64,000 nt of DNA from Ruditapes philippinarum (Eukaryota): positions 310,001 to 374,000 of the forward strand of contig NW_026863691.1 of assembly GCF_026571515.1 (NCBI RefSeq), written 5' to 3'. Of this stretch, positions 53,601 through 59,600 are shown piece after piece. The position numbers were made by a program. Position 1 is the stretch's first letter, and each line of letters opens with the position of its first letter.

Positions 53601-56600
53601 TTGGAGATTGTCTTGTCCGCGCAGTATCTTTTTGAACCGCTGAAAGAAATTTAAAACTATTTGTAATTTCTAGGTCAAATATTTAGTATTTAGAGTTACA
53701 CAAGGCACAAGTTGAAAATTGCGACTTTTTTTACAAAATCAAAGGCAATAACTCTACAAATACTGAATTAATCCACACACGAAACACAAGTGCACAACTT
53801 CACATGCTGATCAACATTCCTGTTAAATTTGTGGACACTAGCTGAAGCACTTGTGACATGTGACACAACATAGGAACACACACATGCAAATACCCACGGA
53901 CAAGGGAAAATATCACCCCCTCAATAATGAGGGCATAAACATGGTCGTGACCCCAATACGGCTCGAAGGGGCCACATTATTTTTCAGTAATAAGACGTTT
54001 GCATTTGTTATATGTATTCTATAGAAATTCACTAACTTCGTTCGAAACCTTGAGAATATTCGTCACAATAATATTATATTAAAAGCAAATAAAAATAATC
54101 GATTTTGACGGTTTATTTGACTTATAAGTTACATTTTACTAAATAAATCCAAGAATGGAGTTTAACTTAATCTTAAGTATGTGCCACTAAAGAGTTAATA
54201 TGCAAAGTAGATGTTTTCCATGATACACGAAAGCTGATGTTGAAAAACTATTGATTTAGAAAAGCAGAGTACTGATCTTAAAACGAAAATTTATACTGTA
54301 TTAAAAGTTTGACGTGACGACTCAATCCTTTTGGTCTAAATATCTGATGACATTTTCAATTTCAGAACACTCTTCATTTGTCAAGTAGTCGACCCATATG
54401 CTTGTCATTTCTTCAATTGGTTCTCCTTTCTCTTCTGAAGTGAAACCTTCAAAGAAATCGTGGTTTTTCTTGTCATCTGTTTGACCAACTGCCACCAGAA
54501 AGATGGATTCTTCCTTCTCTGAAATAAATCCATCGTTATCAGTGTCTAGGATGCTGTTGAAGAACTCTTCACCTACCTGCATCCTGTTAACAAATCCATG
54601 CCGGTCATGCATGAAGGCATTAGCTTGAGTCGTAACAAAGTCGTCAGGTGTAATTTCATTTCCATTCCAAAGAAGTATAGTTGTCCACCATTTGTTAAAT
54701 TGCTCCTCTACGGCGTCCTTTTCCTCTTCAATGAGTTCATGAAGATGGATGAATTTGTCACTGTTGATACAGAAAATATACAGACAAATGAAAAAGAAAA
54801 ATTATCATTACTTTTAACAGACATAAAATTACCATCTCTGTGACGAAACTTCCAAGAAGTCATCTTTTATAGCAAGTTTATCCGCTGTTCGACAGTTAAA
54901 TCTGTCTAATTTCAAGTCAAATAAGAATATTGTGTGTAGAAAATGGTACAAATAGTTTTGAAATATTACTGCCGTCAATGGAGGTCTCAGTTAAGCCGAA
55001 ACTGTAATTGTTAAGTTATGTATTTATTCTTGGTAAAGCTATTAAGATATAAAGATATGTTGTAATCTAGTAACTGTGTACAGATTGTCTTGCACGATAT
55101 TTTCGTGCATCAACAAGGCGTTTCAAATCACTCGAAGTAATTGCATCGATTCGTTCACATTTATATTTTCCCCATCATATGCCCTCACCCCTACAATTTG
55201 ATTGCGTACACTTGTATCTTATCAAGTAAACCTTCAGTTTTTTTTTAAAGAAAAGAAGCTCATTTTGATGGAACTTTATTTTCAGTAATATCTAACAGGT
55301 GATGCTTCAAGTTCAAGTATTCAAGTATTTTGGAATTATTTTCATGTTTTATGTTTGAATTTATTACTGTAATAGTCGGTTTAATGATAGCAATGCAATT
55401 GACCAATACTAATTATGTCTCGCTGTTTATTATGCTTAATAGTTTTTAAAAAGAATAAATTTTAAAAAGAACAAATAATTTATTTTCGTTTGAGCAAACG
55501 AATTAGAAAATGATAGTAATTGAATTCTTTTAGCTTTTTTCTGTAGAATTTCGTTAAACAACTTGTCTCGCTGATCGAAACTATCCAGATATAAAATTTT
55601 GGATATCAAAATGAACTTTAAAATAGCATAGAGCCTGTAAGAGTGTGAATGTTGCCCTTAATCTTAACTATTGTACCTAAATACATATAGAATAATATGT
55701 TCCCGGAACAAGTTATTACATTACTGTACTAATGAAGGATTTTAACAACTAGGTAATGATTTCGTGCGTACGCCACACGCTGATAAGGAAATATAGACCT
55801 TTTTACACTACGATTTTTCCGTAGTAACGGATATTGCATTTCGCACATGCGCATATAGATATTTTTGATTTTTTTTTTTAAACAAAAGTATAAAAAAACA
55901 ACACAAAAACTACAGATGAAATGAAATAAAGACGATATACCTACCTTGTCTGCTTTAGATCATCAAGGGCGACTACTCCGTCATCATTTGCATCGAAACA
56001 TTTTATCCATGCATCCCACTTCGAATATAGACAATCACTGACAAGTACTTCCTAAAGAGTTATATAACATTGATATAAGAATCTGTACACAATGCATCAT
56101 ATTTTGCACAAAAACATGCAGAATCAGTTTCAACAAATTTGATTTAGATCTGGATCAATAACTTCTTGCAAAATTTAAGATCATTTACTTTCTCCGTTTA
56201 TTTAGAATTATCATTTAGATTGTACAAAATGACCAAAAATAGCCGACAGGCGTTAAAAGATTGTTCAACCCTAATCGGGCTATAGCTAAGGAACACACAG
56301 GTTGTAAATTTTCAGTTTAATTAGTATATTTCTTAATTTTCTTTTGCGTAATTTCCTGGTTGATTTATAATTCGGACTTGAGCTCTTTTAAAACAAAGTT
56401 AAATACAACACTTTTGTCTTGTTCTTGATGAAAAGAGCTTACCGTTTGATCATCTCTGCGTATCCTTCCAGATGATACCCATACCAAAGCTGCAACAGTT
56501 ATTAGGTAGTTTTTTAAAACAATCAATTTCCTCGTGAAACATAAATATAATACAGCACACTATAGCTACAACATTACATAGTAAGTGAGTGTTTACTTCG

Positions 56601-59600
56601 TTTGCTCGTATTGCTTTATGTGAATATAAGTTGAGAAAAGGAAATCATTTTATCTTTTGAGACACCTAAACTATCAATAGCCCGGGTACATCGTGGGTTT
56701 TCTCGTTAGTTCTCGTAATTTACATTATTTATTCGATTTGACAATATTATCCATACAGTTTGTAAAGAGTTAGTTGCTTCTGTTCACCAAATGAATTCTT
56801 AAATATGAGTTTTTCGGCGTTTTCAGTCAGCGTTTGCGGATTGGGTTTGGGGATTGTACATCTGATGAAGAAACTACGATGTAAACCCAGCATCAATTTG
56901 CTAACACTAACCTAAAATGACATTATGTATCCAAATAATAATAAAAAACGTATGTAACCGCCACGTTCCCAGATGATAGCCTCAACCCTCCTCCTCATAC
57001 GAACAATTAGGCATCTAATACGATTTTGAGGTAAATTTTGCCATTCTTTGTGAGAGTTTGTTCCAGTTGTTGCAGGTTCGTACCATTGCCAAAATAAAAT
57101 TTAAAATTTCAGTAGTCATCATGTCAAAATTGAGGCAAAATGCCGGGTGTGCTTTTCTTATTTCCAGGTGTATATGATTCCGTATATTTGATTCACACTT
57201 CTTCAAGTATGCAATAAATAGCAATAATTTTGAGAGAAAAAACCCAACATCATTGCTAAAATTCCAGCAAAATGTAGCAATACTGTTAAATAATTACTTT
57301 TTCAATGATCATGGCAATTCCTGAGAAGTGATTCATCCTGTTAACACCAATGTTGTAAAAGGCTAACTTGTTGACATGCAATTGAAGAATTTTGTATGCA
57401 TAAAGATTATTTTTTCTAATGGAAAGTGCAAGTTACCGTCCAAGCCCCCCAGCACCGGCTTTAGCAGTATTCAAAATTTAAACAGGAAAAGAGGGTTATT
57501 TATTTATTGATCACCTATTTGCCAGAGGTTTTCTAAGAAATTACTTTATTATTAATTAATATTATTATTATTATCTTTTATTAGTATAATTATAATTATT
57601 GTCGATGATATAATTATCTATATATTTATTATGATTATTATTATAATTATTATTATTATTATAGAACCGGCAAAGGCCGTCCATATGGCAAATACGCCGA
57701 AAATAATAGGGACGGCATATATAATTACTATGGCAGTGAAAGAGTTAATTTTAGCCTATTCATATAATAAAACAATTATTGTTAAGTGAGTTATTGAATA
57801 TTATACAATTATTGACTAGTGAGCTATTGAATATGATGCGATATTCACCGGCAGATGACATATTGACCGAGGCGATAGCCGAGGTCAATATGACTTTCTG
57901 CCGGTGAATATCACATCATATTTAATGGCTCACTAGTCAATAATTGTTTTATTATATGAATAGGCTAAGAAATAAAAAAAATCACAAAAAGTAAAACCTT
58001 ATATACATGTACAAATTTTGCCTTGTTCAAGCGCGGGAAAAAAAGGCGCACGTGTTAGGCGTGCAACGACTTCGCGAACGCTGCGCATACAAAAGTAATT
58101 CAAGTTTATACTCAACATTGCGGTGTAGCCTTTAAGTAAAATGGTAATGTATTGATATTTTAATCGAGAAATATGCCATAAAGAACAAAAAGCAACAATT
58201 ATTTTTTAAGTAACACGCGTATTTAACAGTCTACGGTGTATGATCATAGAATATGAGTCTCAATCTATTTTTAGACTGGGAAAATCCAATTCAGCCAGTG
58301 AATATGATACTACACCCAGTAAATATGATTTTATAAAAAGTTCTGTTGACTACTCTTTGGACCAATGAGATTGCAGATATATTTAGATCATATAATAAGA
58401 TGTGATATTCACCGGCAGAAAATCATACTGACCTCGGCTATCGCCTCGATTATTTAAGATATACTATTGTACACAATTATTCTGCTTTAATTAGTCTTTC
58501 TTCATATTGTTATCTTATTAATAATTGTTTTTTGTATTTATTTATTTATTTATAAAGAAACTATTTCATGATAAAATAAATTGTTATTAAAGTGTAAAAA
58601 CAAATTGCTAGTTTCCCCATATCACATTTATCACTTTTTGATAAAAACTTTTTTGTGCTGAAACGTATTTCAAAATGTAACAAAATGGAAAGTGAGAGTG
58701 TTTGTATATCTAGTTATCTCTGTTGCCTTAAATGGTTTAAATGAAGATGAAGAGGTAATGAAATACTTACCAAGTATCGAACACAGTCCAATCCAAATAT
58801 TAGCCATGTCTGTAAGTGTTGATCTGTCAATTTCACCAGACGTGAGACTCGCTATATATGTTTGCAAACTGTTCGTTAATTAACACCTGAATTTCCGCCC
58901 TACTTCGTGTTCTGATTGCGAGGTCATTTTGTTTCTGTTTTAATTAGTTTTAATTGATACACGTTTCCTTAATCAAAATACATATATATTTTAATTAGGA
59001 CAACGTTTTTTCGCAAAAGTAAAATAAAACAGTTTATCGTATGGAAAAGAGAAGAAAATTTTAGTTAGAAATATAAGTTCACGTACAGTAAAATAATGAA
59101 TATGACTGAAAGAAAATTTTACATTCTAACAGTTTCATGCAGGGTCACCAAATTAAGATAATTCAGTTATATCTCTTTATAGAAATAATTAACATGCACC
59201 ATTTTGTACATGTATAATTTGTTCTATGAATATTCAAACAATATCAATTTCGTTTCTAGTTTTAATAACCATTGAAATTGTGTCATTTATTTCAAGAGTA
59301 TTAAATTTATTCAAGTAGATGTTGTATTTAATGTTTGTATCGCAGTTGTAAAGGGTTCTGGGACATTAAATACCGAGAAGTAGCTACTACCGGGTGTTTA
59401 GAAGTTCATTCTATCGAACAGATTCAATCAAACATTTTTAGTCTGTTTGTATCGCAGTCGTTTTAATGCTGTGTTTTTCTTGTCCTTTGGACATTTAGTG
59501 CCGAGAAATAGCTACAACCGCGTGTTATTGAAGTTCATTCTATCGAACATATTCGATCTAACATTTTTAGTTTTCGTAGGAGCTTTTCTCCTTCGGTGAG

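What the first reader, a model, noticed from the sequence alone, without database searches (positions are those of the whole stretch)
54322..58807. Secreted, convertase-processed SCP-like calcium-binding protein
Seen: two small extra 5' exons add a hydrophobic signal peptide and RIRR (R-X-R-R furin consensus) ahead of an SCP-type fold. EF1 (DANDDGVVALDD) and EF3 (DTDNDGFISEKE) look functional; EF2 and EF4 are degenerate. The domain is very acidic with three Cys. Established: SCP, calexcitin and aequorin-family proteins are cytosolic. Inference: an extracellular neofunctionalised SCP (shell fluid, mucus or haemolymph calcium or ligand carrier) made by exon gain. This is the best candidate for undescribed biology here.
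Basis: partly seen in the sequence, partly recalled or inferred. Interest (0 to 1): 0.66.

Follow-up and report, generated by a model that had tools for sequence, protein, structure and literature searches.

The report
Mollusc SCP-like gene with predicted secretion leader
This is an intact, unusually acidic and fast-evolving mollusc relative of the muscle calcium-binding protein SCP whose gene model begins with a secretion-type leader, which would send a normally cytosolic protein fold out of the cell; the leader rests on a splice model without transcript support.

Summary
That covers four coding exons with fitting phases and good splice sites, a hydrophobic leader, RIRR, two canonical EF loops, three Cys and strong acidity.

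Searched one exon at a time, exons 3 and 4 are colinear with the Pinctada fucata SCP structure 9l5m. Exon 4 alone models as that fold (TM 0.87). Exon 3 matches the very N-terminus of a canonical SCP but has no Met and has an in-frame stop directly upstream, so an upstream coding exon is needed.

The protein sits on a long branch and has a net charge near -30, against a median of -10 in relatives.

Leader-bearing "SCP-like" proteins are already in public annotation for two venerid clams. They form a separate clade, and six literature searches found no paper describing them.

Convertase processing is only a motif reading, absent from those five relatives.

Verdict: a probable secretory-pathway variant of a known family, moderately interesting, with the 5' end unproven.

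The parts
58852..58858 (-). TATA-like heptamer 45-51 nt upstream of the ATG; possible core promoter
   Evidence: Read. Consensus resemblance only. No eukaryotic promoter tool was available.
58771..58807 (-). Modelled coding exon 1. It holds the ATG in an A(-3)/G(+4) context and 12 codons plus 1 nt, and codes the first part of the hydrophobic leader.
   Evidence: It is the only one of 98 candidates with donor >=7/9 and a hydrophobic tail.
56490..58770 (-). Intron 1 (2281 nt). It carries nested inverted repeats and a (TTA)n array.
56443..56489 (-). Modelled coding exon 2 (47 nt). It codes the end of the hydrophobic core, the small residues S-S-G, then RIRR and DDQT.
   Evidence: Alternative acceptors at 56559 and 56530 use the same donor and frame. 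The frame has no ATG upstream of this exon.
56455..56466 (-). RIRR, which matches the R-x-[KR]-R convertase consensus and directly follows the predicted signal-peptidase site
   Evidence: motif reading only. Absent from the 5 leader-bearing relatives.
56052..56442 (-). Intron 2 (391 nt)
55945..56051 (-). Coding exon 3. It codes the N-terminal helix and first EF hand of the SCP domain, has no Met, and has an in-frame TAG immediately upstream.
   Evidence: The best PDB match is 9l5m_A residues 5-33, E 0.0017. Pfam gives only sub-threshold EF-hand hits.
55959..55994 (-). EF loop I (12 residues, Asp at position 12, as in Pf-SCP)
   Evidence: Ligand positions compared with PMC12542302.
54761..55944 (-). 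Intron 3 (1184 nt). Its position appears to be shared with relatives.
   Evidence: Four ORF-type hits (P0005, P0008, P0014, P0026) change from unrelated sequence to SCP sequence within a residue or two of this boundary. This is an inference.
54322..54760 (-). Coding exon 4 (145 codons plus stop). It codes the EF2-equivalent, EF loop III, the EF4-equivalent and the C-terminal helix.
   Evidence: It matches 9l5m_A residues 37-171 at E 1.4e-10. The AlphaFold2 model has pLDDT 87.5. Foldseek's top hit is 9l5m_A, TM 0.87.
54511..54546 (-). EF loop III, with canonical ligands at positions 1, 3, 5, 9 and 12
54112..54117 (-). AATAAA about 205 nt after the stop; likely polyadenylation signal

Best explanation
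This is an intact, lineage-specific and fast-evolving paralogue of the bivalve sarcoplasmic calcium-binding protein (SCP) family. Its 181-codon SCP domain (exons 3-4) has lost the family's own start codon. It is translated from two upstream mini-exons that add a leader of about 20 residues resembling a signal peptide.

Proposed mechanism:
1. The leader takes the protein into the ER co-translationally (inferred).
2. Signal peptidase cuts after the small S-S-G residues (inferred).
3. The four basic residues then left at the N-terminus may be trimmed by a furin-type convertase (speculative).
4. At the millimolar calcium of the secretory pathway or body fluids, EF sites I and III would be permanently occupied.
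5. The protein would therefore act as an acidic calcium carrier or buffer, not as a calcium sensor (inferred). Its net charge is near -30.

Compartment and tissue are unknown. Homology, fold, loop integrity and gene layout are shown here; localisation, processing and role are inferred.
For: SCP homology, exon by exon:
- Exon 4 matches Pf-SCP 9l5m_A residues 37-171 at E 1.4e-10.
- Exon 3 matches residues 5-33 of the same chain at E 0.0017.
- The AlphaFold2 model of exon 4 has pLDDT 87.5 and pTM 0.79. Its top structural match is 9l5m_A, TM 0.87, E 1.5e-5.
- 28 hits at E<=1e-3 were found among 1.84 billion representatives.
- 55 hits came from the profile search. Every one that carries an informative name is a bivalve SCP(-like) or EF-hand protein.

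Need for upstream coding sequence: exon 3 has no Met and a TAG abuts it.

Leader model:
- Phases fit and donors score 7/9, 7/9 and 8/9.
- The ATG has an A(-3)/G(+4) context and a TATA-like box lies 45-51 nt upstream.
- Exon 1 is the single best of 98 candidates.
- The apolar run continues across the exon 1/2 boundary. Mean KD is 1.8 for the exon 1 tail and 2.83 for the first four residues of exon 2. The five clam leaders give 1.56-2.88.
- S and G sit at -3 and -1.

Precedent: 5 leader-bearing SCP-like proteins in two venerid clams have the same layout of leader, a roughly 10-20-residue linker and the domain.

Gene integrity:
- There are no stops or frameshifts.
- The window row keeps all 5 columns that are invariant in the 10-row alignment.
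- Both calcium loops are canonical, as in the two-site Pf-SCP.
- AATAAA follows the stop.
Against: - No transcript, EST or spliced protein model of this gene was found. The word-indexed search returned only the window's own 96-aa ORF. The exhaustive search found no full-length relative above 36% identity.
- 93 open ATG..GT phase-0 exons could in principle join exon 3 directly. Seven other internal-exon candidates pass the simple filters.
- No SignalP-type predictor was run, and the joined model was not analysed.
- The leader has no basic residue before its apolar core, and three Arg right after it.
- There is no N-x-S/T sequon, and the domain holds an odd number of Cys (3).
- The nearest full-length relative, P0002, is leaderless.
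- Canonical leaderless SCPs do turn up in body-fluid proteomes (Drosophila Scp1; Mercenaria haemolymph). An extracellular role therefore does not require a leader.
Confidence: 0.55

Rival explanations
1. This is an ordinary cytosolic SCP paralogue whose true 5' exon differs from the reader's. On this reading the hydrophobic leader is an artefact of picking exons by eye from 2.7 kb of AT-rich intron-like DNA.
For: - 98 phase-1 and 93 phase-0 open ATG..GT candidates exist upstream.
- Exons 1 and 2 are only 37 and 47 nt long and have no detectable homologue.
- The closest full-length relative is leaderless.
- T-rich DNA easily translates into apolar residues.
Against:
- The apolar run, small residues and basic cluster are all in the frame that ends in phase 0 at a 7/9 donor.
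- No alternative candidate resembles the canonical SCP N-terminus.
- A TATA-like box and a favourable ATG context lie at the right distance.
Confidence: 0.25
2. The N-terminus is a reverse signal-anchor rather than a cleaved signal peptide. It has an uncharged N-terminus, an apolar core and then three Arg, the layout recalled for microsomal cytochrome P450 anchors. It would tether a cytosol-facing SCP domain to the ER or another membrane as a local calcium buffer.
For: - There is no basic residue before the apolar core.
- RIRR follows the core directly.
- The domain has no N-glycosylation sequon and an odd Cys count, as cytosolic proteins often do.
Against: - The apolar run is only 14 residues long (17 uncharged), which is short for a membrane span.
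- Small residues sit at -3 and -1.
- The 15 residues after the core carry +3/-4, net -1.
- The five clam relatives have classical-looking leaders.
Confidence: 0.08
3. The locus is a decaying or unexpressed duplicate. It would be a 5'-truncated SCP copy that lost its start codon and is drifting, which would explain the long branch.
For: - The canonical Met is absent and a stop abuts exon 3.
- The locus has the longest terminal branch in the tree and only 34-36% identity to the nearest relative.
- Intron 1 carries inverted repeats and a (TTA)n array.
Against: - 181 codons are open across two exons in a window that is about 68% A+T.
- Both calcium loops are canonical.
- All 5 columns that are invariant in alignment A2 (the window row included) are kept.
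- The model is confident.
- The splice sites and the AATAAA are intact.
- A second public record holds an identical 28-codon 3' end.
Confidence: 0.07
4. It is a secreted ligand-binding protein of the coelenterazine-binding-protein or photoprotein type rather than a calcium carrier.
For: Renilla coelenterazine-binding protein, aequorin and obelin appear among the sequence and fold matches.
Against: - They rank far below SCP. 2hps scores E 0.026 by sequence and TM 0.66, against TM 0.87 for 9l5m.
- Only two EF loops are intact. As I recall, photoproteins use three.
- Cavity residues were not examined, because the joined model was not built.
Confidence: 0.03

Closest known systems
Pf-SCP, sarcoplasmic Ca-binding protein of Pinctada fucata (PDB 9l5m; PMC12542302)
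   Same: - Same fold and length. The domain is 181 codons against a 180-residue chain, and it is colinear over both exons.
- Same two calcium sites (I and III), with Asp at loop position 12 of site I.
- The paper links Pf-SCP to calcium supply for the shell.
   Different: - Pf-SCP is leaderless and was immunolocalised inside mantle epithelial cells.
- Identity to the window protein is about 28%.
- The window protein is far more acidic, at about -30 against a family median of -10.
- The window protein lacks its own start Met.
Leader-bearing 'sarcoplasmic calcium-binding protein-like' predicted proteins of Ruditapes philippinarum and Mercenaria mercenaria (P0020, P0021, P0023, P0029, P0030)
   Same: Same layout: an N-terminal apolar leader, a short linker and an SCP domain, 192-208 aa in all.
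   Different: - Identity over the exon 4 region is only 21-22%.
- They form their own clade in 99 of 100 bootstraps. The window joins it in 3 of 100.
- None has an R-x-[KR]-R motif.
- They are automatic annotations, and my searches found no paper on them.
P0002 (179 aa, no source name seen), the nearest full-length relative
   Same: It is 36% identical over exon 4 and groups with the window in 50 of 100 bootstraps.
   Different: It has a canonical leaderless N-terminus that starts directly at the first helix.
Calexcitin, Nereis SCP, Renilla coelenterazine-binding protein, juvenile hormone diol kinase, aequorin and obelin
   Same: Same compact four-EF-hand globule. TM is 0.58-0.76 to the exon 4 model, and the profile gives E 7.5e-17 to 2e-4.
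   Different: They are much more distant than mollusc SCP, and all are described as cytosolic (from general knowledge).
EFCBP, the 'novel extracellular EF-hand protein' of the pearl oyster (Huang et al. 2007)
   Same: It is a mollusc EF-hand protein said to be extracellular and tied to shell formation. I saw it only as a citation or one sentence in PMC3120837, PMC4391921 and PMC9100110.
   Different: Its sequence and paper were not available here, so whether it has an SCP-type fold is unknown. It did not appear by name among my hits.
Short N-terminal propeptides removed by convertases, such as the six-residue propeptide of proalbumin (recalled, no tool result)
   Same: A dibasic-ended basic peptide lies directly between the signal-peptidase site and an acidic mature N-terminus.
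   Different: Here the peptide would be only four residues long, and there is no evidence of cleavage.

Membership tests
SCP family (invertebrate sarcoplasmic calcium-binding proteins) | Significant sequence similarity to a bona fide SCP over the whole domain | tested here: met
   Exon 4 matches 9l5m_A residues 37-171 at E 1.4e-10. Exon 3 matches residues 5-33 at E 0.0017. The profile built with relatives gives E 7.3e-58. The exons were tested apart.
SCP family (invertebrate sarcoplasmic calcium-binding proteins) | Compact single-domain globule of four EF-hand units, about 175-185 residues | tested here: met
   The exon 4 model (pLDDT 87.5) superposes on 9l5m_A at TM 0.87. The domain is 181 codons long. 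The first EF hand (exon 3) was judged by sequence only, because the joined model was not folded.
SCP family (invertebrate sarcoplasmic calcium-binding proteins) | Mollusc-type calcium sites: loops I and III liganding, II and IV degenerate | tested here: met
   The loop pattern is met only at exon 3 residues 20-31 and exon 4 residues 72-83. Pf-SCP binds two Ca at the same loops. Binding itself was not measured.
SCP family (invertebrate sarcoplasmic calcium-binding proteins) | Leaderless cytosolic protein whose start Met directly precedes the first helix | tested here: not met
   Exon 3 has no Met and a TAG directly upstream. Of the 58 held relatives with the N-terminal helix motif, 52 have it within 9 residues of their start.
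SCP family (invertebrate sarcoplasmic calcium-binding proteins) | Abundant in muscle or neurons | not testable with these tools
Venerid leader-bearing SCP-like clade | N-terminal apolar leader ahead of the SCP domain | tested here: inconclusive
   The leader is present in the splice model, but the model lacks transcript support.
Venerid leader-bearing SCP-like clade | Common descent with P0017, P0020, P0021, P0023, P0029 and P0030 | tested here: not met
   In a neighbour-joining tree (39 sequences, 146 columns, 100 bootstraps) the clade alone is recovered 99 times and the clade plus the window 3 times. Long-branch effects cannot be excluded.
Proprotein-convertase substrates | R-x-[KR]-R motif exposed in the secretory pathway, cleavage after it, and conservation of the motif in relatives | tested here: inconclusive
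   The motif is present. Entry into the pathway is inferred. The motif is in 0 of 5 leader-bearing relatives. Cleavage is not testable here.
Ca-regulated photoproteins and coelenterazine-binding proteins | Closer to these than to SCPs; three liganding loops; a ligand cavity | tested here: not met
   They rank below SCP by sequence and by fold. Only two loops are intact. The cavity was not examined.
CREC family (reticulocalbin and calumenin; secretory-pathway EF-hand proteins) | Signal peptide, six EF hands and a C-terminal ER-retention-type tetrapeptide (features recalled) | tested here: not met
   No CREC protein appears among the 60 rows shown of the 92 PDB profile hits. There are four EF units, not six. 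The C-terminus ends in DQKD.

The most novel reading that the evidence does not exclude
The cytosolic SCP fold has been sent into the secretory pathway at least twice independently in bivalves: once in venerid clams and once in this lineage. Here the signal peptide was built not from a foreign exon but from former 5'UTR sequence, after the canonical start codon was lost. The result is a hyper-acidic extracellular calcium carrier or mineralisation modulator. One lead supports the UTR origin: the four residues that end exon 2 recur once among 81 held relatives, one residue before the canonical start Met of P0027, after a similarly apolar upstream stretch.
Probability: 0.25. Interest if true: 0.55.

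Novelty: new variant of a known kind. Interest (0 to 1): 0.4.

Why it matters
SCPs are textbook cytosolic calcium buffers of invertebrate muscle and neurons. A secreted, permanently calcium-loaded version would be a different kind of protein: a soluble calcium carrier in haemolymph, extrapallial fluid, mucus or secretory vesicles. It would give a concrete candidate for how molluscs move calcium to the shell. Work on the intracellular Pinctada SCP already raises that question, showing carbonate-triggered calcium release (PMC12542302). The locus would also be a compact case of how a cytosolic protein gains a signal peptide. The importance is limited by three things: the leader is unverified, similar clam proteins already sit in databases, and no function is shown.

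Tried and rejected
- The word-indexed protein search with exon 4 returned only the window's own 96-aa ORF, 1 hit among 10 candidates.
As a result P0002, P0003 and P0027 have no source or name.
- tblastn of the exon 3 and exon 4 peptides against the window found no paralogue. All non-self hits had E >= 1.1.
- Pfam on single exons gave only sub-threshold EF-hand hits.
- BLASTP of the 15-aa exon 2 peptide against P0027 gave nothing.
- Rfam, tRNA and tandem-repeat scans of 52000-61000 found no RNA gene. 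They found only simple repeats in introns 1 and 3.
- Pfam on the stretch in intron 1 that I recalled as a Tc1/mariner tail found no family.
- Six literature searches found no paper describing a signal-bearing SCP. Passages read in PMC4391921, PMC8933548, PMC3575496, PMC9100110 and PMC13190495 mention SCP and signal peptides only separately.
- Considered and rejected:
  - a mitochondrial presequence, because the N-terminus has no basic amphipathic character;
  - ER retention, because the C-terminus has no retention-type ending;
  - a CREC-family member;
  - a photoprotein.
Gene structures of canonical SCP genes, orthologues of exons 1-2, and expression therefore stayed unchecked.

Full report
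WHAT IS THERE

- Exon 1 is 58771-58807. It holds the ATG at 58807 and is 37 nt long.
- Exon 2 is 56443-56489 (47 nt).
- Exon 3 is 55945-56051 (107 nt).
- Exon 4 is 54322-54760, with the TGA stop at 54322-54324.

The three donors match 7, 7 and 8 of 9 consensus positions. The three acceptors end in AG after moderately pyrimidine-rich tracts, 0.55-0.65.

The phases fit. 37+47 = 84 nt, so exon 3 opens a codon. Its last two bases plus the first base of exon 4 make a Ser codon. The model totals 209 codons.

A TATA-like heptamer lies 45-51 nt upstream of the ATG, which has A at -3 and G at +4. An AATAAA lies about 205 nt after the stop.

The joined protein was never searched, folded or written out. 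Nothing below rests on the joined sequence.

THE SCP DOMAIN IS REAL

Sequence evidence:
- The exon 4 peptide (145 aa) matches the solved Pinctada fucata sarcoplasmic Ca-binding protein (9l5m_A, 180 aa) over chain residues 37-171 at E 1.4e-10.
- The 35-aa exon 3 peptide independently has the same chain as its best hit, residues 5-33, E 0.0017.
- The two exons are therefore colinear with one SCP. Exon 3 corresponds to the very N-terminus of a canonical SCP.

Structure evidence:
- AlphaFold2 on exon 4 alone, with 46 relatives as alignment, gives pLDDT 87.5 and pTM 0.79.
- Foldseek puts 9l5m_A first (TM 0.87, E 1.5e-5). It is ahead of Renilla coelenterazine-binding protein, calexcitin, Nereis SCP, juvenile hormone diol kinase and aequorin.
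- A profile search against the PDB gives the same order.

Other results:
- Pfam on single exons gives only sub-threshold EF-hand hits.
- The exhaustive search of 1.84 billion representatives gives just 28 hits at E <= 1e-3. The best full-length one, P0002, is 36% identical.
- A profile search gives 55 hits among 938 candidates. Those with informative names are bivalve 'sarcoplasmic calcium-binding protein(-like)' or EF-hand proteins. The species are Mercenaria, Ruditapes, Meretrix, Dreissena, Sinanodonta, Ostrea, Saccostrea, Crassostrea and Argopecten.
- The protein atlas also points to mollusc SCP clusters.
- There is no paralogue elsewhere in the window.

CALCIUM SITES AND COMPOSITION

A standard 12-residue loop pattern is met only at exon 3 residues 20-31 and exon 4 residues 72-83. 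In the crystal structure of Pf-SCP, two calcium ions sit in exactly these two loops. The first loop has a bidentate Asp at position 12 (PMC12542302, passages read), and the window's first loop also ends in Asp.

What is peculiar is the charge. Exons 3+4 hold 44 acidic and 14 basic residues, a net charge of about -30. Across 51 canonical-length relatives the median is -10 and the range -17 to -4. The domain has three Cys, against a family median of 1 and range of 1-4, and no N-x-S/T sequon.

In a neighbour-joining tree of the exon 4 region (39 sequences, 146 columns, 100 bootstraps), the window has the longest terminal branch. It attaches weakly to P0002 and P0003, with 50 and 40 of 100.

THE LEADER

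The need for upstream coding sequence:
- Exon 3 has no Met, and a TAG abuts its first codon.
- Among 58 held relatives with the conserved N-terminal helix motif, 52 have that motif within 9 residues of their start.
- The canonical start has therefore been lost, and coding sequence must come from upstream, unless the locus is dead.

The layout of the modelled leader:
- Exon 2's frame is open upstream of the exon but holds no ATG, so a further exon is needed.
- Exon 1 gives 12 residues, nine of them an apolar run.
- A split Ala codon and four apolar residues of exon 2 continue the run to 14 residues.
- Then come S-S-G, small residues at -3 and -1, followed by RIRR and DDQT.
- This is the layout of a cleavable signal peptide. 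I could not run a dedicated predictor.

Candidate counts as a crude control:
- I listed every open ATG..GT exon of the right phase in 56490-62500.
- Of 151 open AG..GT internal exons between exon 1 and exon 3, 10 pass simple splice filters. Three of these share the donor at 56443 and the same frame, differing only in acceptor: 56559, 56530 and 56489. The exact 5' edge of exon 2 is therefore not fixed.
- On the other side, 93 open ATG..GT exons could in principle join exon 3 directly. None resembles an SCP N-terminus.

Intron 3 gains outside support. Four ORF-type database hits (P0005, P0008, P0014, P0026) switch from unrelated sequence to SCP sequence within a residue or two of the exon 4 boundary. 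That is what an intron at the same position in unspliced DNA would produce. This is an inference.

RELATIVES WITH LEADERS

Five predicted proteins are named 'sarcoplasmic calcium-binding protein-like': three from Ruditapes philippinarum and two from Mercenaria mercenaria (P0020, P0021, P0023, P0029, P0030; 192-208 aa). Each carries an N-terminal apolar leader, then a roughly 10-20-residue linker, then the SCP domain.

Their best 10-residue hydropathy windows are 1.56-2.88. The exon 1 tail scores 1.8 and the start of exon 2 scores 2.83.

Together with the fragment P0017 they form a clade in 99 of 100 bootstraps. The window joins that clade in only 3 of 100. If the window's leader is real, it was probably gained separately, although long-branch artefacts cannot be excluded.

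None of the five has R-x-[KR]-R between leader and domain. The convertase reading therefore rests on the motif alone. A short basic propeptide directly after a signal peptide has precedent, which I recall without a tool result (proalbumin). I put cleavage at roughly one in three, given secretion.

A LEAD ON ORIGIN

The four residues that end exon 2 occur once among the 81 held proteins (14,320 residues; 0.16 expected anywhere by composition). That occurrence is in P0027, one residue before its canonical start Met and after an apolar upstream stretch. P0027 looks like an ORF extended through the 5'UTR of an oyster-type SCP transcript.

This hints that the window's leader exons descend from a former 5'UTR and not from gained exons. 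It is a post-hoc four-residue match, BLASTP sees nothing, and no DNA of canonical SCP genes was available.

LITERATURE

- Pf-SCP was immunolocalised within mantle epithelial cells. It is proposed to carry calcium for the shell and to release it to carbonate (PMC12542302; abstract and passages).
- Drosophila Scp1 is abundant in haemolymph without a signal peptide (PMC12005426; table passage).
- An SCP is higher in Mercenaria haemolymph than in extrapallial fluid (PMC8902148; table passage).
- Searches combining SCP with signal peptide, secretion, shell matrix, extrapallial fluid, mucus, secretome and proteome found no paper describing a signal-bearing SCP.
- The 'extracellular EF-hand protein' EFCBP of the pearl oyster was seen only as a citation.
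- Supplementary tables were closed. Table S2 of PMC13190495, which lists shell-matrix proteins with signal-peptide calls, could bear on this.

VERDICT

The SCP assignment is secure. The leader is the best available gene model but is unverified.

I estimate the probabilities as follows:
- Secretory-pathway variant of the SCP family: about 0.55.
- A differently spliced cytosolic SCP: about 0.25.
- A membrane-tethered form: about 0.08.
- A dead or silent copy: about 0.07.

The finding is a new variant of a known kind, and interest is moderate. It moves a cytosolic fold to a new compartment and offers a candidate calcium carrier. However, similar clam proteins are already annotated and nothing functional is shown.

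NOT CHECKED

- Transcripts and expression.
- Any eukaryotic genome for orthologues or gene structures.
- The metagenome and viral collections, which were closed.
- Signal-peptide and convertase predictors.
- The joined model in any search or fold.

Noticed in passing
window 6011-12921 (+): Three long ORFs carry a gag-type zinc knuckle plus reverse transcriptase (6011-7327), a weak Dam-like methyltransferase match (7457-8770) and a tyrosine recombinase (11884-12921). This set is typical of a DIRS-like retroelement. I did not assess its state of preservation.
   Followed up: no
window 13959-15077 (+): A 372-aa ORF has two PAN/apple domains, E 4.8e-15. It is probably an exon of a secreted or surface protein gene.
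   Followed up: no
window 43388-43783 (-) and 62559-62924 (-): Two ORFs with weak matches to the C-terminal part of the MIEAP (mitochondria-eating protein) domain lie on either side of the SCP-like gene, on the same strand. They may be tandem duplicates with the SCP-like gene between them.
   Followed up: no
window 56490-58770 (intron 1 of the gene): Intron 1 holds nested inverted repeats (arms 57751-57968, and 57868-57927 with 58389-58448; 87-92% complementary) that look like miniature transposons. It also holds a (TTA)n array at 57546-57662. The translation of a stretch at about 56950-57091 (-) reminded me of a Tc1/mariner transposase tail, but Pfam found no family.
   Followed up: partly
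window 54238-54405 (-), compared with P0007: P0007 is a 50-aa database ORF identical to the last 28 codons of the gene. It reads through the TGA stop as Trp and differs at two of the next 21 codons. A second public record therefore holds this gene's 3' end, translated there with a TGA=Trp code.
   Followed up: partly
window 58799-58807 (-): Exon 1 begins with the same first three residues as many canonical bivalve SCPs. This is probably a coincidence of a favoured start context, but I note it because the canonical start is missing from exon 3.
   Followed up: no
window 59932-60130 (-): An open ATG..GT stretch has the best donor score (8/9) in the upstream region and its own apolar N-terminal run. 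It is 1.1 kb upstream of the modelled ATG. It could be chance, or an exon of another transcript.
   Followed up: no
window 22612-22829 and 42533-42671: Two runs of N, 357 bases in all. I left them as they are.
   Followed up: no
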